Assembly: GCA_000092065.1 (NCBI GenBank)
Contig: CP000584.1
Strand: one strand, 5' to 3'
From: Ostreococcus lucimarinus
Lineage: Eukaryota
DNA length: 64,000 nt
How positions within the stretch are numbered: position 1 is the first letter of the stretch; each line of letters starts with the position of its first letter. Below the pieces are notes generated by a model. It was given only the letters and a program-made list of their open reading frames with translations. It did no database searches and had not been told where the DNA came from. Below, piece after piece: positions 1 to 12,889 of this stretch. A program made the position numbers and the translations under genes.

Positions 1-160
1 CCGCCATCACCGCCACCATCACCACCGCCACCGTCACCACCGCCATCACCACCACCACCGCCGCCGCCGCCGTCCCCGCCGCCGCCGCCGCCTTCACCGC
101 CGCCGCCGCCGCCGTCGCCACCGCCGTCGCCGCCGTCGCCGCCGCCGCCGCCCCCTGCGA
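1..160 (+). repeat. CCN-rich coding microsatellite tract (CCG/CCA/TCA)n encoding (P3-7 S)n.
   Basis: Direct reading of nt 1-160. In frame with gene 1. Confidence 0.9.
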
Positions 161-3100
161 AAGCTATCAGAGGTAACAGCGTCGATTGGACGGTGAAGAA
201 GAACGTCGATAGTACCTCATCGGGGGGAGTTTTCTTGGTCGGATGGAATTCGAAGGGTGCTGCAGTGAGCGCGCGGGCGATCCATTCGTCCTCAAATGTC
301 ACTCGAGGGATATCTGCAACTTTGGAACGTGGGCCTTATTCAATGGGTCACACTTGCGTAGGTCTGACGAGCTCTGCGGATCGCGAGACGGTTGATAGTT
401 CTAACATCGATTTCGCCATGTGTTGCGAATGGGGTTATCTTGGTGTTTTTGAAAAGGGATCGCGCAAATGGCGTGCTAGTGGAAACTTGCAGGATAGTTG
501 TTCACAAACGGACACGCTACAAATCGTCGTGAACGATGGGGATGGCGCGATCGAGTACTTCAAGAATCGGCGTCGCGTGTATACCAGTCAACGGACACCT
601 CAGTATCCGCTTCACGCAGACGCTGAAGTCTATTTCGGAAGACTGGGTGAAGTTGTTTGGATTGAACGAATTCCATCACCGCCTCCTTCTCCTCCTCCAC
701 CGCCTTCACCGCCGCCGCCACCATCACCGCCCCCGCCGCCCCCGCCTTCACCGCCGCCATTGCATCAGTTTACATCCGCGGATGTAGATCCACGCATCAA
801 CACGGCCGCGGCTATTCCGCACATCACACGCGAGGAGTTCGAGGATTTCATCGAAAATATAACAGGCTTCCCTAATTTGGGACACGCCATCGTGATGGAT
901 GAAATCTGGCAGTATATCGACGACGACGGGGACGGTGTTTTGAGTGAGATTGAGTTCCAGCACGCGTCTTACAAAATGCACACTCACGAGCTGTACGTTG
1001 ATCCCATCATCGTCTACCCCAGCCGCTCGATAAAACATCGCTACGGCTTCAAGGTTTCCAAATCAGTCAGGAGTGATTCTAGTGCCTGCGTGGGTGACGC
1101 CGTATCTTACGACGGTCCCTCTGCGTCGCTTGGTTCGTGCGAATTGACTTCGGAGAAGGAGCCTGTAGAGATTACATTATGGGGAAATGGTTTTGCTGGC
1201 ACACCGTCGACGACCACTATTTACAGCTTGGGAGCTTCCAAGAATGGAGACACTACGTACATCGCGAGCGCGCGCGTTTCTGTCGGCACCTGGTTCACGT
1301 ACAACGTGTGTGCGGTGATAAAGTTTCGCGTGATAAAGAAAGATGGTCAGTGCTCGATCGTCGTTGACCAAGTTCATAAGATGTGGCCAAGCCTGGTGTC
1401 TTCGAAATGTGGCATCACGCCACCCATCTATGACAGATGGAGCCGCTACATGGTTGCATCCGTTGCGACGTCGGCGACGAACGGCTTTGCTGGCATGAAA
1501 TCTTCTATGTTCAAGAGCTGCGCTGCGAGTTGTGAGAATGCGATTCTACTTCGACACAATAAAACTGTGCCGTACAATACATCTGAGTGGCGAAATTATT
1601 ACGAGTCTCTAGTAAAACGAGACATGGAGCCGACTACTCACGTCGACTGCTCTCACCGAGAAGACATGGTTGTGCTCGGCAGAGAAGAGGACACGCTCGC
1701 CATGCCCATGGTGCTCTCATCCATGGCTAGGAAGCAATGGCTTCTTGACCTCGATTCGGCGCGGCGAAAGCAGAGTACCAGTGAGAATGTCACCAAATTG
1801 CTCGGCACCATGCACTCCAATTTTGCCATCAGTTCAGATTTATGGCTGCCGGATATTGTACACGTGTTTGACAAAATTCCAAAGCCTGAAAATGCTTCTT
1901 CGGGTCCATCCAAGGAGGATGAAATTCACGTGGTGGATAACGATCTCGGGAATTCTTTCTCAAACTTTGCGCGTATAGAAGTAAACCGACTCCAACTTGA
2001 ACACAAGCGCATTGGAGAAAAAACATTTACAGATGACACCGCCGCTGTGGTCAAAGGCGCTATTCTTTTCCCACAGCATCTCACGGGCGGCAGTCCAAAC
2101 TGTGGATTGTTTGAAGCCATGATTCGTGTTTACGACGTGGAAGAAGACGGCGAGCCAGATGTATACTTGACTGAAGAAGATGGCTCGTTCGAGATGGCTT
2201 TAACGCGTGGAAAGACCTTCAGAATTGAAGCCTTTTATGAAGGACACACCATTTGCTACGCCGGAAGTCAGCCTCAAGACGCGACGTCACCCAATGGCTA
2301 TGATTTCGAAGGAGGACAGCAGGCGTGTGTCAAGACGACCCACACGCTCGCTCGTGTCGGCGATGGCAACTTTTTATACTTTACAGATATTACGCGCGGA
2401 AATATTGACCTTGGTTTGTATGCGGGAGAATGCGAAGAAAGGTACACGGGCGAAGATGTCAAGTTTAGGGTAACGCCCGTCAACGGCTGTCATAAACCCG
2501 TCATCGTTTCCGAAACCGACATCAACGAGCGATGGCATACGATTGAGGATATCCTACCGGAAGGCCAGCAGGTTGGCGACAACGCCCGCGTGTGGAAATT
2601 CGCGGCGATGGATTACTCCATCACGCTAGCGAGTGGTTCCGACATCAGTAGAGTTACCGAAAAAGCGTGTCCAGACGAGGCATGCCCAGATTACTGGGAT
2701 GGATGTCAAGTCGAGCCAGACGACATGCGTCAATTTTTCCGCAATCGAAACTCACTCGAAAGACTTGCGCTGATGAGAGATGAATTTGCGTGGAATTCCA
2801 TCAGGTACAAGTATCACGGATATATCTGCGCACAAATAATGGACATTCCTCGAATCACTGATAACGAGCTCAGACTCGAGACTTGCGTAGGCAACTTAAC
2901 TTCCGGAATGTTGACAGAGAAGCATTTACTGGGTTCGTCTGATCACGACACAATCAGCGTCGCCGCTGACAAATCGTTGAGGGTGAAGGTGTTTGAACTT
3001 CACGATCTCACACCGAATGCCGCAGATGCCCCATTTAAATGCACAAAGTTTCCAAATACGCAAAGTCGCACGGGAAACACGAAATTTTCCGTTCGACAGA

Positions 3101-6100
3101 CTGTCACAAATGAAGAAGATAACGTGTGTCATCCAAATCGCGGGGGTGGGCCCCTGTGCGATTTTGAAGTTAATATATCAACGGCTGACGTCGGCAAACT
3201 CATCTTTCCGACGGAAGAAGATACGGATCAGGAAACTACCCAAATGGTCATTGCCGCGGGGTATCCAAACCTTGCAAACCCGTATCGACGAGAAGTCACG
3301 ATCACTGTGACACGCGACGATACACCCTTGGACGGTGGTCTTGGGCGATCGCTGCAAGCAACGATGACGCGAGTACTTATCCCATTGGGCTCCAAGCCAC
3401 GAGGAGGATTTGACACGGGAGATGACACCTTGTGGGCGACAGTGCCTATTGATGGATTGGTATACACAGTGGTGCACGATCCGCCAGGTGGTAATTCTGT
3501 AGCCGAGCTGCAATCTGGATCTGAGATTACGATTCAGTGGGAAATCGCTTCAGCTCGCTCTGTGAAAGTTGGCAGATCGATCGAGCTCAACCTCGGTTTC
3601 GCAGGTAAAACTACGTTTGATCTAGGCTTTAACGCCGGTTACACCGCAGAGGCTGCTACAAAATCGAGCGTTCTCACGTTGGAGACGGAGAAAGATTTCG
3701 GACACAAAGAATCTGGTCCACACTTCACCGCGAAGGCGACGTCCGAAGAAGTGTGGGAGACGACGGTTACGATGGATCGACACATCCGGAGCAGCGACGA
3801 TGAAGGCACACCTGGACGTCCGGGCGACGTCATTTTAGGAGGTGGTATCGAACTCGTGTACAAGGTATCAGATACGCTCGACGTAGGTACTGTTGACGAC
3901 TGCTTAACTACGGGTGTTGGTATAACCTGGTTACCGCGTCGACCAACCTCTTACGTGTTCAACGTCTTTTCCATCGAGTCTCAAGTGCTGCCGAATCTCT
4001 ACTTTCTGTATACTGTCGCCAAGTCTGGCGAAAATACGGCGAAGACACCGTCAGATAGAATCGTCAAGGATGGATCGGGTATGCGATATGAGTGCGCGTC
4101 ATCGCCGTGCTCTAACTCAGAAATGAATCAACATTGGGCAAGCTACATACTGAGACGAATCCATACGTGGAAGCGAACGTTGCTTTGGTCCTCGCCCGAA
4201 GTTTACTGGATGCCAAAGGGTGCGAGTTATGAAAAGAACTACAAAGCATACGATCGCATCAATGAACCGTACATCGATTCACGTTCCCTCTTTGAACGGC
4301 GCATGTCATCCGCGTTGGCACAGCGTGATTCCAAGCGTGATCCATCGATTCTGAGGGTTGCATTCGAGCTGAGTAAAATGTGGTACGAGCAATCCCTCCT
4401 CAGTGTGGGTGACAGAGGCATGCTTCGTTCGAAACCTCACATCCCTGCTTTATTTCTCACTGCAGGACTGGAAATTCCGAGACTAGCACCATTTCTCGAA
4501 AATTCACGAGCAGCGTCTTTTGCTTCGATCGCGTACCCACGTTCGTCAAAGGGTGCGTGGTCATTCGATGAAGTGGTAAATGACCAAACAAACATCGGAA
4601 TGTACTCTTTTGGGATGAACGAAGTCGCCGCTCGTGACCTCGATGCGCAGGTCAAGAAGTGCGACGGTGTACTGTGCGAGACCAGTGGAGAATTCGACGC
4701 CGCACCACATGACGTGTTGTACGGAGGATCACTGAACGCCATGGGTGAGACCGGCGACCTTCGCGCCACGGACCCTTCGCGCTTAATGGCGTCTCTTACT
4801 GGGACTCCTGGTCCAACCGGAATGCTTCAAAAGGATGCCGTCGCGAGCGGCGGAGAAGAGGAGACGATATACTTAACTTTTGGTGGTGGTGGACATGCGT
4901 TGGAATTCTCTTTCAGCGCAAAGGAGTCCATCAACCGCGATGCATTCGCGTACTCGCTTGACTTTGATGCAAGCGCCGAAAACACAAACAACATGAAGTT
5001 CTCGGGCTCACCAATACCCACCATCGAGTTTAATCGAGCGACAGACATCGCCAGAACGCTGTCCACGGATCGTATCTTTGCGTGGAACAAGTACGGAACG
5101 ATGACGACGGTGTATTCTCTCGCGGATCCAGATTATGGCGATAAATTTGTTCTGAAAGTCGGAAGCGATGCGCGATTCGGCACACCGCTCTTCATGACAA
5201 TGGGCGGTAGATCCATGTGTCCCGGCGAATTGACGACGATGTGGCGCGAATCGGGAAATATCATTGAAAGACCTCGTTCGTTATCCTTTGGTACGCTCCC
5301 GCTGAACCCAGGAGAGCGCGCTGTTCACGAAATAACTATTCAGAATGAATCTCCATACAGAGAAGCCCGACCGCTGTATTTACGTATCGTTGATGGACAC
5401 TCAGAGTCGTTACGATCGCTGGTGCGCGCAGCGCTGAACATCATCAAGGATGATGAATCAGCTTCGGCACAACATGTAGCCACAGTTGTCACGAACACTG
5501 CTGCAAACTCAGTAGCTTCGGCATCCCTGTCCATGGCCACTGTCATAGAGAAAGTTGAAGAGGCAGCTGGCAGCGGCGACGCGACTGCCCTGAGTGTTAT
5601 GCAAGTCGTCGTCGCCGAAGTCGAGAGCGTCAGTAAATCGGCTATGACGCCGTTACAGGATGTAGAGATTACCGTGAACGGCAAGAAGGTGGTACCTGTC
5701 GCTGAGTGGCTTCCTTTGAAGCATGTCATCGGCGATGCTCTTGAATCACAACGGACCGTTCACAAGACTGTGTTCAACTTGGGTTTCAAGCCAACGGAAA
5801 CCTCGCATCCTATCATTGAACACATTCAAGTTGAAATTGGATCTCTGTGCGAAATGCAAATCTCATATGATGGAGCTGGTCTGTATCGCGATCCAATCGC
5901 CGTCAAGGCTCAACTTGAAAAGATGCGATGGGAATCCAAGTGTCCGAGCGTGACGTTTTCCAAGTCCACCGTCATTGACAGTGAAATCACGCGCGCAAAC
6001 GCGACTGCGCCGCCGCTTCGTTTGGTGGTGGTCAATCCCGATTCTGGAAACTTGTGGGATCCTAGCAGCGCCAGTAGACTCGAAAAGGTTGTCGTACAGT

Positions 6101-7371
6101 ACAGACCGCTTTCGGGTGGCGAATGGATTACTGCGAAGGAGGATCATGTGAAGTACAAAGACGACTCGTACAAGAAAAATCTCATCTGCGAACATTCTCG
6201 AACGAGCGGATGCACGTGGGACTGGGATTTGAACAACAAATACGACAAGTTACTCAGCGGATACAAGGACGGTGCGTACGAGGTTCGCGTTAAAAACTTT
6301 TGCTCGGGCGGTGACGCTTTCGCCGCGACCGAGGTGCACGAGTACGTCGGCGATAAGACGCTATTACTCTTCACGGATACGAAAAACCCGCTCGTCGAGC
6401 AGCACGTGTCGTCACCCGCGGCGCGCACCGTCACCATCGTGTACGCGGAGGAAATCGATTGCGCAGATCCACCGACCTTCGAAGTGGCGCAAACTCACGA
6501 CGAATCCTGCGTCGCCGTCGCGGGCGATGGCACAGTCAGCGCGGCTATCATTCGTGAGTCTTACGAGCAAACGTGCCTCAACACCGGCGTTCAAGGAAAG
6601 TGGATGATGCAATATCCCAACAATGAGGATGCTCCGAATCCTGGATTGTACAGAGTCACCGTCAGAGACATACGTGACAAAGCCGGTAACCCTTTCGTCG
6701 GCGATTTGACGATAAACTACGTCGTGGGTGACGTCGTCGATGACTGTGACATTTTGAAAGCATCCAAAGATGACCTCACCCCGCTCATCGGTTTGGGAAA
6801 TTTCGCCGATGTTCAAGGCAATACCATCTGGGGGGTGTACTCTAAAAATATCGACTGTCGCTCGCAGCGAGTCACCATCACGAAGAGTTTTGATCAATCG
6901 TGCCGATCCACGAGCACAGAAATTGGCACAACCAACTTCACGCTTGCGTGCGTGAACGTCGGCGGAACGGGACAATGGATCATGAAATATCCTGAAGATC
7001 TGGAATCTGGAGTTTACACCGTGCGAGTTCAAGGCGTGAAAGATCGCACTGGTCACGAAGCGTCTTCTTTCATTCGCAAGTTTACAACGCTTCATAACTC
7101 GGATGGAACGTTGAACGAATGCGACGACGCGTCCGCCTCTTTTGCCATCGGACTTGGGCGGATGCGTCGTCGACGTCTCGCTCCGAGCGCGTCCGCGACA
7201 AAGACGTCCACAAACTTGATTCTGTCCGATCTCGCCATCGTCGTGTTCGCTATCTGCGCGCTCGTGATGATCATCAAGAAAAGAATCGCGCTGCCCGCGG
7301 ATGAGAGTGAGCTGCGCGAACGCGAAGCCTTCGACAAGGTGGACATTCCGCGCTATGGTTCATCTTTGTGA
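1..7371 (+). CDS. Giant secreted or type-I membrane protein, 5'-partial (reading frame 1 is open from nt 1; at least 2456 codons). Extensin-like (S)P3-7 tracts, one canonical EF-hand loop, two tandem ~95-aa Cys-containing Ig-like repeats near the C-terminus, a single C-terminal TM helix and a short basic tail.
   Basis: ORF track 193..7371 (2392 aa); the same frame has no stop back to nt 1 and encodes PPSPPPSPPPP repeats from nt 1. Second Pro tract PSPPPSPPPPPSPPPPPSPPPPPPPSPPP at ~664-765. EF-hand loop DDDGDGVLSEIEF. C-terminal hydrophobic segment LILSDLAIVVFAICALVMII followed by KKRIALP. Repeated G-Y-V-(V/R)-V-D-AGN-like motifs. No antisense competitor of comparable quality. Confidence 0.8.
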   Translation, partial: PPSPPPSPPPPSPPPSPPPPPPPPSPPPPPPSPPPPPPSPPPSPPSPPPPPPAKAIRGNSVDWTVKKNVDSTSSGGVFLVGWNSKGAAVSARAIHSSSNVTRGISATLERGPYSMGHTCVGLTSSADRETVDSSNIDFAMCCEWGYLGVFEKGSRKWRASGNLQDSCSQTDTLQIVVNDGDGAIEYFKNRRRVYTSQRTPQYPLHADAEVYFGRLGEVVWIERIPSPPPSPPPPPSPPPPPSPPPPPPPSPPPLHQFTSADVDPRINTAAAIPHITREEFEDFIENITGFPNLGHAIVMDEIWQYIDDDGDGVLSEIEFQHASYKMHTHELYVDPIIVYPSRSIKHRYGFKVSKSVRSDSSACVGDAVSYDGPSASLGSCELTSEKEPVEITLWGNGFAGTPSTTTIYSLGASKNGDTTYIASARVSVGTWFTYNVCAVIKFRVIKKDGQCSIVVDQVHKMWPSLVSSKCGITPPIYDRWSRYMVASVATSATNGFAGMKSSMFKSCAASCENAILLRHNKTVPYNTSEWRNYYESLVKRDMEPTTHVDCSHREDMVVLGREEDTLAMPMVLSSMARKQWLLDLDSARRKQSTSENVTKLLGTMHSNFAISSDLWLPDIVHVFDKIPKPENASSGPSKEDEIHVVDNDLGNSFSNFARIEVNRLQLEHKRIGEKTFTDDTAAVVKGAILFPQHLTGGSPNCGLFEAMIRVYDVEEDGEPDVYLTEEDGSFEMALTRGKTFRIEAFYEGHTICYAGSQPQDATSPNGYDFEGGQQACVKTTHTLARVGDGNFLYFTDITRGNIDLGLYAGECEERYTGEDVKFRVTPVNGCHKPVIVSETDINERWHTIEDILPEGQQVGDNARVWKFAAMDYSITLASGSDISRVTEKACPDEACPDYWDGCQVEPDDMRQFFRNRNSLERLALMRDEFAWNSIRYKYHGYICAQIMDIPRITDNELRLETCVGNLTSGMLTEKHLLGSSDHDTISVAADKSLRVKVFELHDLTPNAADAPFKCTKFPNTQSRTGNTKFSVRQTVTNEEDNVCHPNRGGGPLCDFEVNISTADVGKLIFPTEEDTDQETTQMVIAAGYPNLANPYRREVTITVTRDDTPLDGGLGRSLQATMTRVLIPLGSKPRGGFDTGDDTLWATVPIDGLVYTVVHDPPGGNSVAELQSGSEITIQWEIASARSVKVGRSIELNLGFAGKTTFDLGFNAGYTAEAATKSSVLTLETEKDFGHKESGPHFTAKATSEEVWETTVTMDRHIRSSDDEGTPGRPGDVILGGGIELVYKVSDTLDVGTVDDCLTTGVGITWLPRRPTSYVFNVFSIESQVLPNLYFLYTVAKSGENTAKTPSDRIVKDGSGMRYECASSPCSNSEMNQHWASYILRRIHTWKRTLLWSSPEVYWMPKGASYEKNYKAYDRINEPYIDSRSLFERRMSSALAQRDSKRDPSILRVAFELSKMWYEQSLLSVGDRGMLRSKPHIPALFLTAGLEIPRLAPFLENSRAASFASIAYPRSSKGAWSFDEVVNDQTNIGMYSFGMNEVAARDLDAQVKKCDGVLCETSGEFDAAPHDVLYGGSLNAMGETGDLRATDPSRLMASLTGTPGPTGMLQKDAVASGGEEETIYLTFGGGGHALEFSFSAKESINRDAFAYSLDFDASAENTNNMKFSGSPIPTIEFNRATDIARTLSTDRIFAWNKYGTMTTVYSLADPDYGDKFVLKVGSDARFGTPLFMTMGGRSMCPGELTTMWRESGNIIERPRSLSFGTLPLNPGERAVHEITIQNESPYREARPLYLRIVDGHSESLRSLVRAALNIIKDDESASAQHVATVVTNTAANSVASASLSMATVIEKVEEAAGSGDATALSVMQVVVAEVESVSKSAMTPLQDVEITVNGKKVVPVAEWLPLKHVIGDALESQRTVHKTVFNLGFKPTETSHPIIEHIQVEIGSLCEMQISYDGAGLYRDPIAVKAQLEKMRWESKCPSVTFSKSTVIDSEITRANATAPPLRLVVVNPDSGNLWDPSSASRLEKVVVQYRPLSGGEWITAKEDHVKYKDDSYKKNLICEHSRTSGCTWDWDLNNKYDKLLSGYKDGAYEVRVKNFCSGGDAFAATEVHEYVGDKTLLLFTDTKNPLVEQHVSSPAARTVTIVYAEEIDCADPPTFEVAQTHDESCVAVAGDGTVSAAIIRESYEQTCLNTGVQGKWMMQYPNNEDAPNPGLYRVTVRDIRDKAGNPFVGDLTINYVVGDVVDDCDILKASKDDLTPLIGLGNFADVQGNTIWGVYSKNIDCRSQRVTITKSFDQSCRSTSTEIGTTNFTLACVNVGGTGQWIMKYPEDLESGVYTVRVQGVKDRTGHEASSFIRKFTTLHNSDGTLNECDDASASFAIGLGRMRRRRLAPSASATKTSTNLILSDLAIVVFAICALVMIIKKRIALPADESELREREAFDKVDIPRYGSSL

Positions 7372-7653
7372 TTCCACCGCGCGAATTGACCGTCGGCGAC
7401 AAAGTCGAGAAACCGACGAACCTACGTCGCCGTCACTTTTTGACAATTTTGATTTACTCCTTTTCTCTATGTTCGAGTCGCCGCCGTTCGACCTCGCGTC
7501 TCGCCTCCTTCGCGCGCCGTCGCCCCGGGAGTCACCGCCGTCGTTTGGCGAAATCTCGCGCCGTCGAGCGTTTTGAGCGTTTTTCGCCGCGCGCGACCGC
7601 CTCGACCGCCGCGCCCTCGGCCGCGCGAGCGCGCGACGCGCGGCGAGGGCGAC

Positions 7654-9631
7654 ATGGCGGCGACGCGCGAGGACGACGGCGACGTTGAGGCGCGGCTGCG
7701 CGCGCGCTGGGCGGCGGACGGACGCAAAAACCCCGACGTCGAGGACGCGCTGCGGCGCGTGGGGATCGCGAAGGCGCGCGAGCGACGGTGCGTCCGCGCC
7801 GCGCGGGCGACGACGACGACGGCGACGAGCGATGCGCGAACGACACTAACGCTCGTTTATGCGACGCAGGGCGATGATGGCGCGAGCAAAGAATGTGGAG
7901 TTGCGCTCGAGCGAGGACGTCGGCGCGGCGAAGACGTACGAGGAGGCGGCGCCGCGCGCGGACACGCCGCCCAAGCGCGAACGGAGCGTGGAGGCGGCGA
8001 GTGAGTCGGCGGCGGACGAAGAGGCAACGCGTAAAGAAGCGATGCTCATCGAAACGTTCGATTCATCGCGGGCACCGAGGGGCCGAGGCGAAGGCGTCGC
8101 GGGGTCTCGTCGAGCGACGCCGAACGCGTCGATTGACGAACGCGCGCCAGGCGCGGGATTGCGGCTGAAAGGGAACGAAGCGATGAAGTGCGGCGATTTT
8201 GCACTCGCACAGGCGTTATACGGCGAAGCGCTGGATGCCGCGCGAGAAGAGGATGCGCATCTTCGAGCGGTGGTGTTTTGTAATCGCGCGTTGGCGTTTC
8301 ACAAGATGAACGAATACGATGCCGCGTTGTGCGACGCCAAGTGCGCGGAAGAGCTCGCGCCGACTTGGAGTAAACCCAAGCATAGACTCGCTGAGGCGTG
8401 TTTACGCCTGGGGTCGTACACTCTCGCCGTCACATACGCGCGTCTGGGCGAAAAACTCCAGTTCGAGGAGGGCGATTTCAGCAAATCGTTTCGCGACGTG
8501 CTGGACGAAATCGCGATTTGCGCCGCGGAGGACGGGTCCGTCGCCGGGTTTGACGGCAAATTAATTTACGTCCGAAGCGCGGGCGAAGACGCATGGCTCG
8601 GACGAGAGGCTCCTTTGAACGCGGCTTTCGATGAGCTAGAAGGCGAAGTCGCGGATCCTATGTTTGGTGGCGGCTCGGCGAAGGACGCGAATTCGATGAA
8701 ACCCGTGCACGCGAGGTCACTTCCGGAGGCAATTTCTAAAGCAAACGACGGTGACCGCATACTCTTACTGCGTGGCGTTCACAACGGGCTCGGAACCGTG
8801 GTTGAGATTGACAAGCGCGTGCTCATACGAGGCGAAGGCGCGCTTCGAGACACGACGTGCGATTGCCGAAACAACGCGGCGTTATTTCGCATCAAGCGTC
8901 CGTGCGTGATTCAAAATCTCGACATCGATTTCACAGGGTTTAGCGAGGCGATTCGCATCAAGGGAGATTCGCGCGTGAACGCGTTGATCGAGAATTGCGT
9001 GATCAGATCGAGCGGCGGCGACTGCGTTGCGGTCGGTGGCAAATCTGCGCCGACATTTCGCAACTGCTCAATCACGGGAAAATTGAGCGGCGTTCGCTCG
9101 TACGCCCAAGCAACGCCGACGTTTATCGATTGCAACATCACGCGCTCGGGATTACAGGGCGTGCTCGCCATGAAGGAATCACGAGTCATCATGCACGGCT
9201 GCGCGGTGCAAAACAACGAAGAAGACGGCGTCGTCGTCATGGAACAGTCCAACGTGGTGATGAGCAAATGCGTCGTACAAGACAACAAAGGCCCGGGCGT
9301 GGACGTTTCGAATACGGCAAAGGTTGTCGTGAACGATTGCGACATCGACGCCAATGTCGGCGGACTGTGGCTGTGGGACCATTCGTGCGCGCACGTCGCC
9401 GCGTCCAGCGTGAACGGGGGCAAATCTCACGCCGTGCTCGTCGACGTCAACGCTCGCGCGAATTGTCGCAGAACCAAAATCATCGGCGTCGTGCACGCGT
9501 CGGAGACGGGCGCGCGGGGCGTTCGGGGCGAAGGCACCGTCGTCGAGACGTTGGAAACGCCCACGTCGCTTCCCCAAGAAGCCAAAGGCGCGTTCAAGCA
9601 CGACCCGTGCGGCTTTTCACGAAAACAATAA
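7654..9631 (+). CDS. TPR-repeat plus right-handed parallel beta-helix (PbH1/CASH-like) protein. Proposed two-exon model join(7654..7787,7870..9631).
   Basis: ORF 7859..9631 contains a TPR-like segment (LRLKGNEAMKCGDFALAQALYGEALDAA...NRALAFHKMNEYDAAL) and about 8 beta-helix rungs (NCVIRSSGGDCVAVGG / NCSITGKLSGV / DCNITRSGLQGV / GCAVQNNEEDGVVV / KCVVQDNKGPGVDV / DCDIDANVGG). The upstream ORF 7573..8004 ends in a GTGCGT donor. A CACTAAC branch and a GACGCAG acceptor join the frames in phase (...AKARER-R-AMMARAKN...). The true ATG is probably 7654 (MAATREDDGD). Confidence 0.65.
7788..7869 (+). other. Putative 82-nt spliceosomal intron (GTGCGT...CACTAAC...GACGCAG) in the TPR/beta-helix gene.
   Basis: The donor GT sits at the third base of an Arg codon. 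The yeast-like branch point CACTAAC lies ~20 nt upstream of the CAG acceptor. Splicing is phase-consistent and links ORF 7573 (frame 1) to ORF 7859 (frame 2). There is no homology support for exon 1. Confidence 0.5.
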
Positions 9632-9676
9632 TCTCACATTCCTCCGCAATCCATCGCCCGCGTTCGCGCGCGCCGC

Positions 9677-10258
9677 CTATTCGTCCCCGAAATCGAACCC
9701 GCCGCTCTCGACGAGTCGCGCTTCGTCGTCCGTCGCCGTCGCCGTCGTCCCCGCGTCGACGTCGATCCTCGCGCGACGTCGTTCGCGCGTCGCGTCTCCC
9801 TCCTCTCGCGCGCGCGTCCGCCTCCGCGCGTCGTCCTCGCGAATCGCGCGCTTCGCCTCCGCGGTTCTCGCCCTCGCCTTCGCGTTCGCGTCGTCGCGTT
9901 CTCGCCGCGCGTCGTCTCGCGCCCTCTCGTTCGCCCTCGCGCTTTCGATCGCCCTCGCGCACGTCTCCGCGAGTCCTTCCCCTCCCGCCCGTCGCGTCCT
10001 CGCCGATTCCTCGCCCCCGTACGCGCGCGCCGCGCCGTCGCCCGCGCGTCCGCGCGACCACGCCGTGTGCGTCGGTTCGCCGTCGCGCGCGGTCGGCATC
10101 GTCGCGCCGCGAAACCCGTGTCGCGCGAGCGCCTCCATCGACACCGCCGCGCGTCGCGCCGTCGCGCCTTTCGTCGTTTTTTCTTCCCCGTCGTCGTCGT
10201 CGTCGTCGTCGTCGTCGCTCGACGTCGCGCCGAGCGCGTCCATGAATTTCGCCGGCAT
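9677..10258 (-). CDS. Low-complexity acidic/basic protein (Asp9 run, R/E/A/D-rich); hypothetical.
   Basis: Minus-strand ORF 9677..10333, trimmed to the internal ATG (MPAKFMDALGATSSDDDDDDDDDGEEK...). GC-ending codons. Convergent with the TPR gene and divergent from the ZZ gene. Could also be a spurious GC-rich ORF. Confidence 0.35.
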   Translation of the reverse strand: MPAKFMDALGATSSDDDDDDDDDGEEKTTKGATARRAAVSMEALARHGFRGATMPTARDGEPTHTAWSRGRAGDGAARAYGGEESARTRRAGGEGLAETCARAIESARANERARDDARRERDDANAKARARTAEAKRAIREDDARRRTRAREEGDATRERRRARIDVDAGTTATATDDEARLVESGGFDFGDE

Positions 10259-10502
10259 GCGCGCGGCGACCGACCGCGACCGCGCGACTGTGTTTGCAGT
10301 CCCGATACACATTTCGCGAATCGTCGCGCGCACGCGATGCGTTAAATACGGTTAAATACGGCGCGACGGCGACGCGAGCTCCGGCGCGCGCGGCGACCGA
10401 CCGCGACCGCGCGACTGTGTTTGCAGTCCCGATACACATTTCGCGAATCGTCGCGCGCACGCGATGCGTTAAATACGGCGCGACGGCGACGCGAGCTCCG
10501 GC
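10259..10502. repeat. Direct tandem duplication, period 127 bp (copy 1 = 127 bp including an extra 10-bp TTAAATACGG insertion; copy 2 = ~117 bp), in a divergent promoter.
   Basis: ORFs 10294 and 10421 begin with the identical 19-aa peptide MQSRYTFRESSRARDALNT, giving a 127-bp period. The unit GCGCGCGGCGACCGACCGCGACCGCGCGACTGTGTTTGCAGTCCCGATACACATTTCGCGAATCGTCGCGCGCACGCGATGCGTTAAATACGG...CGCGACGGCGACGCGAGCTCCGGCGC is read twice in the sequence. It contains the AT-rich TATA-like TTAAATAC. Confidence 0.85.
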
Positions 10503-10736
10503 GCGCGCGCGCTGACGTGGCGAACCGAAACGGCGCCGTCGTCGCCGCACACCTCGACGGCGCGCGCGACGCGACGGCGCGCGACGCCGGCGCGACGGAC
10601 GACGGCGCGCGCGCGGGCGGGCGAATCGACCGCGCGCGCGATTCGCGACGCGCGACCGGGCGCGCGAGGACGACGCGCGTCGCGCGAGGACGACGCGCGA
10701 GGACGACGCGGGACGTGCTGACGCGGCGTCGCGGCG

Positions 10737-11411
10737 ATGGCGACGCTCGCGCGCGTGCCGCGCGCGCGGAGCGGCACGGAACTGAGCGGGATGGAGGCGA
10801 AGAGCGCGAAAACGACGTCGACGACGACGCAGACGGGCGCGAGCGGGGCAGGGGCGACGCGAGGGAAGGGAAGGCGAAGCTGCGTGAAGGCGGCGCGCGG
10901 GCGCGGGACGGCGAAGCGACGCGGACCGCGCGTCGCGTTCGCGCGCGAGGTGTGCGAGGTGATCGGACGCGCGGATGCGGACGTCGATCGAACGCCCAGG
11001 GGTGAACCGTCGAAGTGTTCGTCGTGTGGATTGCACGTCGTCGGGTACTCGTTCGAGTGTTTGGCGTGCGCGGGGGCGGGCGCGGGGAACGACGGCGGCG
11101 CGTACGCGCTGTGCGCGATGTGCTTTACGGCGCACGCGCACTTGACGGCGGCGCCGGAGTTGGCGCGAGCGCACGGGATCACGTATTTGATTCACAAACA
11201 CGCGCCGTCTGTGTTCGTCAGAGGCGGGGACGACGATCAGATGATGCTCGATGAGATTTTGCGAGATCGTCGCGAGCTCATGGTCAACGGCGGCGCGCCG
11301 CCCGAGCGCGAAGCCTCGACCGGGGACCTCGAGCGGTGTTTTGAACGCGAGCGTCAGCCGAGCGCGGGGAGCGACGAATCGGAGGATGTTTTGCAGTATT
11401 GTCCCGTGTGA
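10737..11411 (+). CDS. ZZ-type zinc-finger protein.
   Basis: Cys/His pattern CSSCGLHVVGYSFECLAC...YALCAMCFTAHAH...H matches the ZZ finger (CxxC-x-CxxC ... CxxC ... HxH). The start is uncertain (ORF-track start 10737; alternative Met at 10791). Confidence 0.6.
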   Translation: MATLARVPRARSGTELSGMEAKSAKTTSTTTQTGASGAGATRGKGRRSCVKAARGRGTAKRRGPRVAFAREVCEVIGRADADVDRTPRGEPSKCSSCGLHVVGYSFECLACAGAGAGNDGGAYALCAMCFTAHAHLTAAPELARAHGITYLIHKHAPSVFVRGGDDDQMMLDEILRDRRELMVNGGAPPEREASTGDLERCFERERQPSAGSDESEDVLQYCPV

Positions 11412-11482
11412 TCATCTCGCGCGAGGCTGATGTTTTGTTGTACTTTTAGACCTCATTCTTTTCTCAATATCACAGACTAGTG

Positions 11483-12889
11483 TCACTTCTTCTTCGCCGC
11501 CTCGCGACCTCGAGCGATGGCGAGATCAAACATCCGTTTCAAGTCTGCGTTATCACCGTCGACTTGCAAACCCTCAAAAAACGCTAACGCGGCGTCTTCG
11601 TACTCCTCTAACTCTAGCGCGGCCTCGCCCTCGCGGTACCACGCCTTGATGAACATCGGATCGAGCGTCCTCGACGCGCGCGCGTCGTCCCTCGCGCCTT
11701 CGTATTTCTTGAGCTTTAGACGCGCCGCCGCGCGATTCGCCCACGTCTTCGCGCACGAACCATCCTGTTCGAGGGATGACGAGTACTCCGTTTCTGCCTC
11801 TTCGAATTTCCCCGCCACGAACGCTTCGTTACCCGCACGTTTCGTCTTCGCCGCCGCCTCGGCGTCTCGCGTGACGAATCGTTCCGAGGTCGACGCTGGC
11901 GCCTCGCCGGCGTCGACGCCACTGTCTCTTTGCATCGCGCTCAGTTTCGCGGCGACGCGCGCGATGATGGCATCCGTCGTCCACTCGCCCTCGTCATCGG
12001 GCGTCGTCACGGGTAGCAACACGTCGACGACGACGCGCCTCTTCGTCGCCGCGGCGGCGTGAATCGCCTTCATGCCTCCCGAATCCGCCTTGTCGGCGTC
12101 GGCGCCGCCCTTCAACAGCGCCTTCACCATCGCCTCCGAGCACGTCTCCGTCGCGGGATGCGCGGCGGCGATGTGCAACGCCGTCATACTCCCCTCCGGT
12201 CCCGCGTTCACGTTCGCGCCGGCGTCAATCAACACCTCCACGCTCTTCAAATCTCCCGAAGCGCACGCGAGCGCCGTCGCCGCGACGCCGCCCTCGAGCG
12301 CGACGTCACACCTCGCCCCGTGCTTCAACAGCGTCTCCAGCATCCCCGAGCACCCTCTCATCGCCGCCACCAGCAACGGCGTCCCCACGTTCGCGCACCG
12401 CTGTTCGATCGCCTCCGATATCGTCAGCCCGTACGTCCCGCTCGCGAGCGTCCGCAGCGCCTCCTCGCAGCGCGTCGCGTCCGCGCCGATCCCTTTCGCG
12501 TGCGCCCCCATGACGATCTGATGCATCGCTCCCGCCCCAGATTTCGTTAATTTCCTCGCGTCCGCTCCCAGGCTCACCAGCGTCTTCACGCACTCGACGT
12601 GTCCGAGCGCCGCCGCCGTCGTGAGCGCGGTGAAGCCCTCGGCGTCGGGCGCGTCGGCGTCGCACCCGAGCTCGCACACCAGCGCCTTGAGCACGCCGAC
12701 GTCCCCTCGCGCCGCCGCGACGTGCGCGCAAGACCGTCCATCGCCGTCGACGATCGTCGCGACCGCGGACGCGCCGTGCGCGAACGCCGTGGACGCCGCG
12801 CGGACGTCGTCGGCGCCGCCGAGCTGAATGGCGCGCATGAGCGTCTGCAGCGCCTCGACGTCGTTCGTCGCGGGCGCGCGACGCGACAT
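11483..12889 (-). CDS. Ankyrin-repeat plus C-terminal TPR-repeat protein.
   Basis: ORF 11483..13132, trimmed to the ATG at 12889 ([15 protein letters not shown]). Ankyrin repeats (G.TALH.AA..GH...V..LL..GAD...). C-terminal TPR helices ([28 protein letters not shown]... [62 protein letters not shown]). Confidence 0.7.

What the first reader, a model, noticed from the sequence alone, without database searches (positions are those of the whole stretch)
1..7371. 7.4-kb single-exon giant membrane protein: extensin-like tracts + EF-hand + tandem Ig-like domains, at lower GC than its neighbours
The longest uninterrupted frame in the window is 5'-partial, with at least 2456 codons. It encodes a protein of unusual architecture. 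It has two (S)P3-7 extensin/HRGP-like tracts, a canonical EF-hand loop (DDDGDGVLSEIEF), and about 2000 aa of Cys- and N-glycosylation-site-rich sequence. Near the C-terminus are two tandem ~95-aa repeats with G-x-Y-x-V-x-V...D-x-AGN-like motifs reminiscent of bacterial Ig-like (Big) domains. It ends in one TM helix and a short basic tail. Sampled lines in this gene are ~45-62% GC with many A/T-ending codons, versus ~65-75% in most of the rest of the window. This may suggest low expression, a different origin, or a compositional domain boundary near 7.4 kb.
Basis: partly seen in the sequence, partly recalled or inferred. Interest (0 to 1): 0.6.

Follow-up and report, generated by a model that had tools for sequence, protein, structure and literature searches.

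The report
Giant low-GC surface protein gene, Ostreococcus
The window opens inside a roughly 12-kb intron-free gene of the tiny marine alga Ostreococcus lucimarinus that encodes a 4,000-residue membrane-anchored surface protein of an unnamed family, and the gene alone, not its region, has unusually low GC.

Summary
Window 1-7371(+) is one open frame of 2,456 codons with two Ser/Pro tracts, a canonical EF-hand loop, two tandem Ig-like repeats, one TM helix and a 31-residue tail. Only "Cys- and N-glycosylation-rich" fails.

The window is Ostreococcus lucimarinus CCE9901. Environmental contigs at least 99% identical show the full gene is about 4,007 codons and starts with a signal peptide, so the protein is type I.

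GC3 is 0.554, against 0.70-0.85 (mean 0.77) in 17 neighbouring genes. A contig that reaches the gene start returns to GC 0.6-0.8 upstream. The low-GC tract is therefore the gene itself, not the edge of a large compositional domain.

Three relatives in other, non-syntenic contexts also have clearly depressed GC3. No viral relative was found. Recent transfer looks unlikely. A gene-intrinsic cause (weak codon selection and/or weak GC-biased conversion) is favoured. Raw pN/pS is about 0.76, against 0.17 in neighbours.

About 1,600 residues form a conserved core with no Pfam or NCBIfam family and no PDB sequence match. Within it, a roughly 270-residue module with an invariant D-P-P-G motif recurs in giant secreted bacterial and protist proteins and matches no solved fold.

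Best reading: a giant adhesion or recognition glycoprotein. That function is inferred, not shown.

The parts
1..7371 (+). C-terminal 2,456 codons plus stop of a roughly 4,007-codon intron-free gene. The 5' 1,551 codons lie upstream of the window.
   Evidence: No stop in frame 1. The ORF is intact in contigs L009-L013 (>=98.9% identical) and is called there as 4,008-4,018 aa. The start codon and signal peptide were seen in L015. The full length was reconstructed as 4,007 aa.
1..156 (+). Ser/Pro (extensin-like) tract 1, aa 1-52. It begins 3 residues upstream of the window.
   Evidence: Translation. The tract spans full-protein residues 1549-1603.
157..672 (+). Globular segment of about 170 aa between the two Ser/Pro tracts. 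No family assignment.
   Evidence: Translation. No Pfam hit.
673..759 (+). Ser/Pro tract 2, aa 225-253.
829..978 (+). EF-hand region. The canonical loop DDDGDGVLSEIE lies at nt 919-954. A degenerate first hand precedes it; that hand is canonical in some relatives.
   Evidence: Weak Pfam hits to EF-hand_1/_7/_6. The family-wide best is E 6.6e-7, and 4 of 10 members hit. Loop residues are nearly invariant. The only weak PDB hits to the family profile are calbindin D9k/S100 pairs. N-termini of P0100 and P0103 show a canonical first loop.
1510..6396 (+). Conserved family core, aa 504-2132. Several hundred invariant positions across 10 sequences at 36-42% identity. No described domain.
   Evidence: Alignment A1. 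No Pfam or NCBIfam hit. No PDB sequence match.
3244..4206 (+). 'DPPG module', aa 1082-1402. This is the only part shared with distant bacterial and protist giant proteins. The invariant H/R-D-P-P-G-G motif lies at nt 3475-3492.
6421..6726 (+). Ig-like (Big-type) repeat 1, aa 2141-2242.
   Evidence: Pairwise match to repeat 2 at E 6e-14. The collinear bacterial relative P0099 has a weak Big_5 hit at the equivalent place.
6817..7089 (+). Ig-like (Big-type) repeat 2, aa 2273-2363.
   Evidence: Big_13 hit at E 2e-4, 22 bits, below the 27-bit cut-off.
7216..7275 (+). Single transmembrane helix LILSDLAIVVFAICALVMII.
   Evidence: Highest hydropathy window of the whole protein (2.88). The only other strongly hydrophobic window is the N-terminal signal peptide.
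7276..7368 (+). 31-residue basic cytoplasmic tail ending in YGSSL. The C-terminal Y-G-[SA]-x-[LVI] is conserved across the family.
7372..7876 (.). Intergenic spacer where GC returns to the genomic level (0.69). This is the 3' edge of the low-GC island.

Best explanation
**What it is.** The frame is the 3' 61% of a roughly 12-kb intron-free nuclear gene of Ostreococcus lucimarinus. It encodes a type I cell-surface glycoprotein of about 4,007 aa.

**Order of parts**
- signal peptide
- Cys-containing N-terminal segment
- three Ser/Pro spacers, probably polyproline-II rods that are hydroxylated and glycosylated, separating globular modules
- an EF-hand pair with one canonical Ca2+ loop
- a conserved, beta-rich core of about 1,600 aa that contains an undescribed 'DPPG module'
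- two Big-type Ig domains forming a membrane-proximal stalk
- one TM helix
- a short tail ending in a conserved YG(S/A)x(L/V/I)-COOH

**Shown.** The ORF, its topology elements, family conservation and module sharing are shown.

**Inferred.** It projects far from the wall-less cell and serves Ca2+-dependent adhesion or recognition: of a mate, another cell, a particle or a virus.

**The low GC.** It is a property of the gene, not of the region. In Mamiellophyceae, mutation is AT-biased (equilibrium GC 37-46%). GC3 is held high by selection for GC-ending codons in expressed genes and/or by GC-biased gene conversion. This gene largely escapes those forces, most simply because it is rarely or conditionally expressed and many of its sites are weakly constrained. 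It has therefore drifted toward AT at all three codon positions.
For: **Organism.** Neighbouring ORFs are exact matches to O. lucimarinus CCE9901 proteins XP_001417314 and XP_001417563.

**Gene extent and topology**
- establish the full ORF.
- There are only two strongly hydrophobic segments: the N-terminal signal peptide and the C-terminal TM helix.

**Function is maintained**
- The ORF is intact in 5 independent environmental contigs at >=98.9% identity.
- Hundreds of residues are invariant at 36-42% identity.
- None of 21 non-synonymous polymorphisms in the aligned part falls on an invariant column.

**Extracellular, adhesin-like company**
- The core is collinear over three blocks with a 4,683-aa bacterial T9SS protein carrying LamG, FG-GAP, fn3 and Big_5.
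- A relative of another module-bearing protein (P0214) lies in an Ignavibacteria MAG.
- A eukaryotic relative has DUF285 and Laminin_G_3 upstream of the module.
- The EF-hand is conserved and the Big-like repeats are present.

**GC is gene-confined**
- Flanks on both sides are at GC 0.6-0.8.
- GC3 is 0.554 against a neighbour mean of 0.770, z = -4.4.
- GC1 and GC2 are also lower. FYMINK residues are 23% against 18%, and GARP residues 25% against 35%.

**The depression recurs in non-syntenic relatives**
- L002: 0.57 against 0.67-0.75.
- L016: 0.60 against 0.67-0.80.
- L017: 0.62 against 0.72-0.85.
- There is no contrast in a 48%-GC genome.

**Relaxed constraint**
- The giant gene has 10 synonymous and 24 non-synonymous polymorphisms. 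Five neighbours have 20 and 11. Fisher P = 0.006.

**Background from the literature**
- Mutation is AT-biased, and GC is held up by selection or gBGC (PMC5455958).
- Codon bias is GC-ending and rises with expression in O. tauri (PMC3673656).
Against: - No expression, localisation or binding data exist, so the adhesion role rests on architecture alone.
- Two of seven relatives show no GC3 depression (L001, L005) and one only a slight one (L007). The effect is therefore not universal in the family.
- Other long genes in the window (1,557 and 1,118 codons) keep GC3 at 0.72, so length alone does not explain the effect.
- The boundaries are sharp, which gBGC alone would not obviously produce.
- The polymorphism sample is small: 7 consensus sequences from metagenomes.
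- The amino-acid composition shift would also fit an old foreign origin.
Confidence: 0.55

Rival explanations
1. The gene was acquired horizontally from a low-GC donor (bacterium or giant virus) and has not yet ameliorated. That would explain its low GC, its lack of introns and its bacterial-type Ig-like domains.
For: - The DPPG module and following blocks are shared with bacterial T9SS giant proteins, and a relative of one of them lies in an Ignavibacteria MAG.
- There is a weak Big_13 hit.
- GC3 of 0.55 is near the prasinovirus range of 0.47-0.52 reported in PMC3673656.
- The amino-acid composition is shifted.
Against: - No relative was found in 2.9 million viral contigs, and there was no BFVD fold match.
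- The best bacterial similarity is only 22-32% identity over short blocks.
- About 13 full-core lineages exist in compact eukaryotic genomes at 36-42% identity, so any transfer would be ancient and long since ameliorated.
- The GC3 depression recurs in non-syntenic relatives.
- The protein has green-algal Ser/Pro tracts and a eukaryotic signal peptide with type I topology.
- CpG o/e is still above 1, as in the host genes.
- Most genes in this window are intron-free ORFs anyway.
Confidence: 0.1
2. The gene sits in a local recombination cold spot, or is a long-lived polymorphic recognition locus under diversifying or balancing selection. Reduced GC-biased gene conversion lowers the GC, and selection raises non-synonymous diversity.
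For: - Raw pN/pS is about 0.76, against 0.17 in the neighbours.
- Multi-allelic in-frame indel loops occur at nt ~2520-2560 and ~2860-2900.
- Synonymous diversity is lower than in the neighbours: 10 in 7.4 kb against 20 in 8.4 kb.
- The low-GC outlier regions of Mamiellophyceae genomes are a precedent (PMC5455958).
Against: - All sampled sequences are at least 98.9% identical. There are no deeply divergent haplotypes of the kind balancing selection would give.
- A cold spot would not be expected to end exactly at the start and stop codons.
- It would also not be expected to recur at different chromosomal sites in relatives.
Confidence: 0.2
3. The window starts at the edge of a large low-GC compositional domain, such as the outlier-chromosome regions of Mamiellales, and the gene is merely the last gene inside it.
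For: GC of 0.52 is close to the values reported for outlier chromosomes (50-54%, PMC5455958). Within the window itself only one boundary is visible.
Against: L015, about 99% identical over the stretch it shares with the window, shows GC 0.59-0.80 in the 3.3 kb upstream of the start codon, with GC-rich ORFs there (GC3 up to 0.88). The island is about 12 kb.
Confidence: 0.03
4. The frame is a decaying pseudogene or a chance ORF.
For: Raw pN/pS is high. One contig (L008) has stops in frame.
Against: - The L008 stops follow a run of N in a scaffold.
- A 12-kb frame is intact in five other contigs.
- Invariant columns are avoided by polymorphisms.
- The chance probability is below 1e-20.
Confidence: 0.02

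Closest known systems
Giant modular secreted or surface proteins of FCB-group bacteria (T9SS substrates with LamG, FG-GAP, fn3 and Big domains), e.g. P0099 here, with a relative of another such protein in an Ignavibacteria MAG
   Same: - They share the DPPG module, two further collinear blocks and a Big-type Ig domain in the same order.
- They are thousands of residues long and extracellular.
   Different: - The bacterial proteins end in a Por_Secre_tail sorting domain rather than a TM helix and cytoplasmic tail.
- They lack Ser/Pro tracts and the EF-hand.
- Identity is only 22-32%.
- None of these bacterial proteins has a described function either.
Chlamydomonas sexual agglutinins and other chimeric hydroxyproline-rich glycoproteins of green algae
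   Same: - They are very large green-algal surface glycoproteins in which proline-rich rod segments carry globular domains.
- They act in cell-cell recognition. The agglutinins are high-molecular-weight HRGPs (PMC2113696 and PMC2113723 abstracts).
   Different: - To my knowledge agglutinins are extrinsic flagellar-surface proteins, not TM-anchored.
- No sequence comparison could be made here, so homology is untested.
- Ostreococcus has no flagella or wall (my own knowledge, not checked in a paper here), and its sex has never been observed directly.
- The Ser/Pro tracts here are short spacers (17-55 residues), not a long shaft.
Low-GC outlier chromosomes or regions of Mamiellophyceae
   Same: GC is about 10 points below the genome average, and the value (0.52) is similar (PMC5455958).
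   Different: Outlier regions span whole chromosomes or hundreds of kb (the larger-scale figure is from my own knowledge). Here the depression covers one gene of 12 kb with normal-GC flanks.

Membership tests
EF-hand (Pfam PF00036 / PF13499) | 12-residue Ca2+ loop with D1, D/N3, D/S5, G6, hydrophobic 8 and E12, flanked by helices | tested here: met
   DDDGDGVLSEIE at aa 307-318. The loop residues are nearly invariant in the family.
EF-hand (Pfam PF00036 / PF13499) | Score above the Pfam gathering threshold | tested here: not met
   16 bits against 25.4 for the window protein. The best relative reaches E 6.6e-7.
EF-hand (Pfam PF00036 / PF13499) | Hands occur in pairs | tested here: inconclusive
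   A weak EF-hand_7 (pair) hit covers aa 275-322. Weak calbindin/S100 matches cover both hands. The first loop is canonical in P0100 and P0103 but degenerate here.
Bacterial Ig-like domains (Big_13 PF19077 / Big_5 PF13205) | Score above the Pfam gathering threshold | tested here: not met
   Big_13 scores 22 bits against 27. Big_5 is only a weak hit, in the bacterial relative.
Bacterial Ig-like domains (Big_13 PF19077 / Big_5 PF13205) | Ig-like beta-sandwich fold | not tested
The tandem duplication itself is shown.
Extensins / hydroxyproline-rich glycoproteins | Repeated Ser-(Pro)3-7 motifs in a secreted protein | tested here: met
   There are three tracts of 17-55 residues and an N-terminal signal peptide.
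Extensins / hydroxyproline-rich glycoproteins | Tyr-containing cross-linking motifs within the repeats (classical extensins) | tested here: not met
   The tracts contain only S and P.
Extensins / hydroxyproline-rich glycoproteins | Prolyl hydroxylation and O-arabinosylation/galactosylation | not testable with these tools
   This needs biochemistry.
Mamiellophyceae low-GC outlier region | Low GC extends over many genes (100 kb or more) | tested here: not met
   GC is 0.6-0.8 immediately upstream of the start codon and downstream of the stop codon.
Recently transferred (foreign) gene | Close relatives in a donor lineage; patchy presence in the recipient clade | tested here: not met
   No viral relatives were found. 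Bacterial similarity is remote. There are multiple deep eukaryotic lineages.
Chlamydomonas sexual agglutinins (SAG1/SAD1) | Sequence homology to the agglutinin head or shaft | not tested
The resemblance is architectural only.

The most novel reading that the evidence does not exclude
The family would be the long-sought cell-cell recognition molecule (gamete adhesin) or the virus-docking molecule of the wall-less Mamiellophyceae. It would be expressed only in a rare life stage, which would explain its weak codon bias. Its invariant Asp-Pro-Pro-Gly module would be a new self-processing or membrane-interacting domain, shared with giant bacterial surface proteins and analogous in role to GPS, SEA or GDPH autoproteolytic modules.
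Probability: 0.1. Interest if true: 0.75.

Novelty: new variant of a known kind. Interest (0 to 1): 0.45.

Why it matters
Ostreococcus is a minimal, naked model phytoplankter. Its sexual cycle has never been seen, and I know of no identified prasinovirus receptor on its surface. A conserved 4,000-residue surface protein that appears to carry no name in any source is therefore an obvious candidate for either role, and a concrete target for knock-out or tagging.

The gene-confined GC3 trough recurs in relatives at unrelated loci. That makes it a clean natural test case for what holds GC3 high in these genomes: codon selection or biased gene conversion.

The DPPG module is a widespread but undescribed extracellular domain of bacteria and protists, with no solved structural relative.

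Tried and rejected
- AF2 on the 1,096-aa core with a 6-sequence alignment failed (pLDDT 31) and was not used.
- The afdb50 library was unavailable.
- Pfam gave nothing for the N-terminal 1,638 aa or for seven distant module-bearing proteins. NCBIfam gave nothing.
- PDB sequence and profile searches gave nothing beyond weak EF-hand hits.
- The second and third word-indexed homology searches added almost nothing, and no named proteins.
- Cluster look-ups found no NCBI or UniProt member.
P0300 turned out to be the same gene with frameshifts.

Rejected ideas:
- Outlier-chromosome boundary.
- L008 as a pseudogene: the stops follow a run of N.
- Gene length as the cause of low GC3: other long genes keep 0.72.
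- CpG decay through methylation as the sole cause: CpG o/e is lower (1.35 against 1.55-1.93) but still above 1.
- An N-terminal thrombospondin-like motif seen by eye in L015. Pfam does not support it, so it is not claimed.
Full report
**Observation**

Frame 1 of window 1-7368 is open for 2,456 codons and ends with a stop at 7369-7371. Given the stop-triplet frequency of the window, the chance of this is about 1e-21 to 1e-30.

The translation shows:
- Ser/Pro tracts at aa 1-52 and 225-253.
- The loop DDDGDGVLSEIE at aa 307-318.
- Two related segments of about 95-100 aa at aa 2141-2242 and 2273-2363, matching each other at BLASTP E 6e-14.
- One strongly hydrophobic helix at aa 2406-2425.
- A 31-residue tail, KKR...PRYGSSL.

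Pfam gives only sub-threshold hits: Big_13 at E 2e-4 and EF-hand_1 at E 8e-3.

Two descriptors fail. Cys is 1.83%, against 1.69% in the neighbours. N-X-S/T sequons number 11, against 15.1 +/- 3.6 expected from shuffles.

**Organism and context**

Neighbouring ORFs are exact matches to Ostreococcus lucimarinus CCE9901 proteins on a roughly 931-kb chromosome. These are the H+-PPase XP_001417314 and the Band 7 protein XP_001417563; a third ORF shares a 90% cluster with a shorter model, XP_001417313. The window is a compact run of mostly intron-free housekeeping genes: PIG-U, ABC1 kinase, H+-PPase, Band 7, an O-methyltransferase, an ankyrin/TPR protein and a NosD/beta-helix protein.

**True extent of the gene**

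The downstream neighbour (584 aa) was looked up in public assemblies. This returned six environmental contigs that are >=98.9% identical to the window.
- In five of them the giant frame runs on upstream and is called as a protein of 4,008-4,018 aa.
- The sixth (L008) has stops only after a run of N in the scaffold.
- A 40-mer from the upstream part retrieved contig L015, which contains the start.
- The ORF opens with MRARFARGASMSALLLALCALASLLGVARG, a typical signal peptide, followed by a third Ser/Pro tract.
- Splicing L015 to the window gives 4,007 aa, and the window begins at residue 1552.
- The signal peptide and the C-terminal helix are the only strongly hydrophobic segments, so the topology is type I with about 3,900 extracellular residues.

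**Composition**

| Measure | Giant gene | 17 neighbouring genes |
|---|---|---|
| GC | 0.522 | about 0.55-0.70 |
| GC3 | 0.554 | 0.70-0.85 (mean 0.770, sd 0.049) |
| CpG o/e | 1.35 | 1.55-1.93 |
| FYMINK residues | 23% | 18% |
| GARP residues | 25% | 35% |

- The giant gene's GC3 lies at z = -4.4 relative to the neighbours.
- GC1 and GC2 are also lower.
- Other long genes in the window keep GC3 at 0.72.
- The 3.3 kb upstream of the start codon in L015 is at GC 0.59-0.80, and the spacer after the stop codon is at 0.69.
- The low-GC tract is therefore about 12 kb and coincides with the ORF. It is not the edge of an outlier-chromosome-type domain.

**Relatives**

A word-indexed search found one 98% cluster and eight proteins at 36-39% BLASTP identity, all from metagenomes. 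They align over about 1,900 columns with several hundred invariant residues. Conserved features include the EF-hand loop and a C-terminal Y-G-[SA]-x-[LVI].

Their contigs are compact eukaryotic DNA at GC 0.55-0.60. The neighbours are unrelated to those here: P5CR/WD40/bromodomain-AAA, raffinose synthase, CMAS/Dna2 and MoaC/P2X.

| Context | GC3 of relative | GC3 of its neighbours |
|---|---|---|
| L002 | 0.57 | 0.67-0.75 |
| L016 | 0.60 | 0.67-0.80 |
| L017 | 0.62 | 0.72-0.85 |
| L007 | 0.69 | 0.70-0.72 |
| L001 | no contrast | |
| L005 | no contrast | |
| L020 (48%-GC genome) | no contrast | |

A signature that recurs at different loci points to a gene-intrinsic cause rather than a regional one or a recent transfer.

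**Deep homology**

An exhaustive HMMER scan of 1.84 billion representatives used the core profile. It found 244 proteins at E<=1e-3, of which only about 13 cover the full core.

The rest share a module of roughly 200-270 residues (window aa 1082-1402) built around an invariant D-P-P-G motif.
- Some carriers have C-terminal TM helices and look eukaryotic. Others are bacterial.
- P0099 (4,683 aa) carries LamG, FG-GAP, fn3, a weak Big_5 hit and Por_Secre_tail. It is collinear with the Ostreococcus core over three blocks.
- A relative of P0214 lies in an Ignavibacteria MAG.
- A eukaryotic relative has DUF285 and Laminin_G_3 upstream of the module.
- Seven distant carriers have no Pfam domain at all.
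- No member of any cluster read carries an NCBI or UniProt name.
- No relative was found in 2.9 million viral contigs.

**Structure**

The 1,096-residue core could not be modelled with six sequences (pLDDT 31).

The module, with a 39-sequence alignment, gave pLDDT 71 and pTM 0.62.
- It has beta strands around the DPPG turn, where local pLDDT exceeds 90.
- It has a poorly defined, length-variable insert of about 50 residues.
- It has a long beta-hairpin of about 20-residue strands.
- It ends in a helical hairpin.

**Polymorphism**

Seven near-identical sequences were compared after masking columns near indels.
- The giant gene carries 10 synonymous and 24 non-synonymous differences.
- Five neighbours carry 20 and 11. 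Fisher P = 0.006. Rough pN/pS is 0.76 against 0.17.
- None of the 21 non-synonymous sites in the aligned part falls on a family-invariant column.
- Two loops show multi-allelic in-frame indels.

The core is therefore constrained, but many positions are free or diversifying.

**Interpretation**

Mutation in Mamiellophyceae is AT-biased, with equilibrium GC of 37-46%. Observed GC is held above that by selection and/or GC-biased conversion (PMC5455958). Codon usage is GC-ending, and bias rises with expression in O. tauri (PMC3673656).

A gene that is rarely or conditionally expressed and loosely constrained would relax toward AT at all codon positions. That matches what is seen.

The architecture is that of a giant surface adhesion or recognition glycoprotein:
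- signal peptide
- rigid Ser/Pro spacers
- Ca2+ loop
- large beta-rich core shared with bacterial surface giants
- Ig-like stalk
- TM helix
- conserved tail

Its ligand is unknown. It could be a mate, a bacterium, a particle or a virus. The function and the expression-based explanation are inferences. The gene structure, topology elements, family and composition are shown.

**Rivals**
- Recent horizontal transfer is disfavoured by the age and spread of the family, the absence of viral relatives, the remote bacterial similarity and the recurrence at other loci.
- A large domain boundary is refuted by the upstream flank.
- A pseudogene is refuted by the intact frames and conserved columns.
- A recombination-cold or diversifying recognition locus remains possible. 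It is partly compatible with the main reading.

**Verdict**

The finding is real. It is mostly correctly described but only partly correctly interpreted.

It is an uncharacterised family of giant surface proteins with an undescribed domain and a gene-confined GC trough. This is a new variant of a known kind (giant modular adhesin-like proteins) and of moderate interest.

Noticed in passing
window 9600-11500: A GC-rich (0.70-0.74) stretch lies between the NosD-like gene and the ankyrin/TPR gene. Among seven near-identical O. lucimarinus-type sequences it is by far the most indel-variable part of the first 20 kb: 57 segregating sites and 490 gap columns within 10-11 kb. Overlapping long ORFs occur on both strands.
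   Followed up: no
window 2520-2560 and 2860-2900: Multi-allelic in-frame indel loops occur inside the giant gene. Examples are INERWHTIEDILPEG / INARWRRLLVEDILPEG / INARWVLPEG, and RITDNELRLETCVGNLTSG / RIKTDNELTQETCVGNSTSG. Eight of the 24 non-synonymous polymorphisms cluster in aa 768-1007.
   Followed up: partly
window 7276-7368, and C-termini of relatives: The cytoplasmic tail ends in Y-G-[SA]-x-[LVI]-COOH in nearly all full-length family members. This may be a sorting or PDZ-type ligand motif.
   Followed up: no
whole window: CpG observed/expected is 1.55-1.93 in all 17 neighbouring genes, an unusual CpG excess. It is 1.35 in the giant gene, where TG+CA is correspondingly higher.
   Followed up: partly
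window 1-7371, and family clusters: No member of the clusters read for this family carries an NCBI or UniProt accession, although the neighbouring genes do. The gene may be missing or fragmentary in the reference annotation of O. lucimarinus. This is unverified, because only 40 of 185 members of the closest cluster were read.
   Followed up: partly
L020 1430-13627: A long-read contig at GC 0.47 carries a ~12-kb relative broken into many same-strand ORFs, with DUF285 (three copies) and Laminin_G_3 upstream of the DPPG module. It shows no GC contrast with its flanks.
   Followed up: partly
several family contigs (clusters of P0101, P0102, P0105, P0106): Many contigs carrying relatives are barely longer than the gene itself: for example 2,978 aa on ~10.0-10.4 kb, and 3,773-3,847 aa on ~12 kb. 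Assemblies may break at the gene borders, or some of these may be transcript assemblies.
   Followed up: no
window 829-918, and N-termini of P0100 and P0103: The segment before the canonical EF loop looks like a degenerate first EF-hand. In some relatives that first loop is canonical (DLDQSGGVDRSE, DADGSRNLTKSE). The ancestral state was therefore probably an EF-hand pair.
   Followed up: partly
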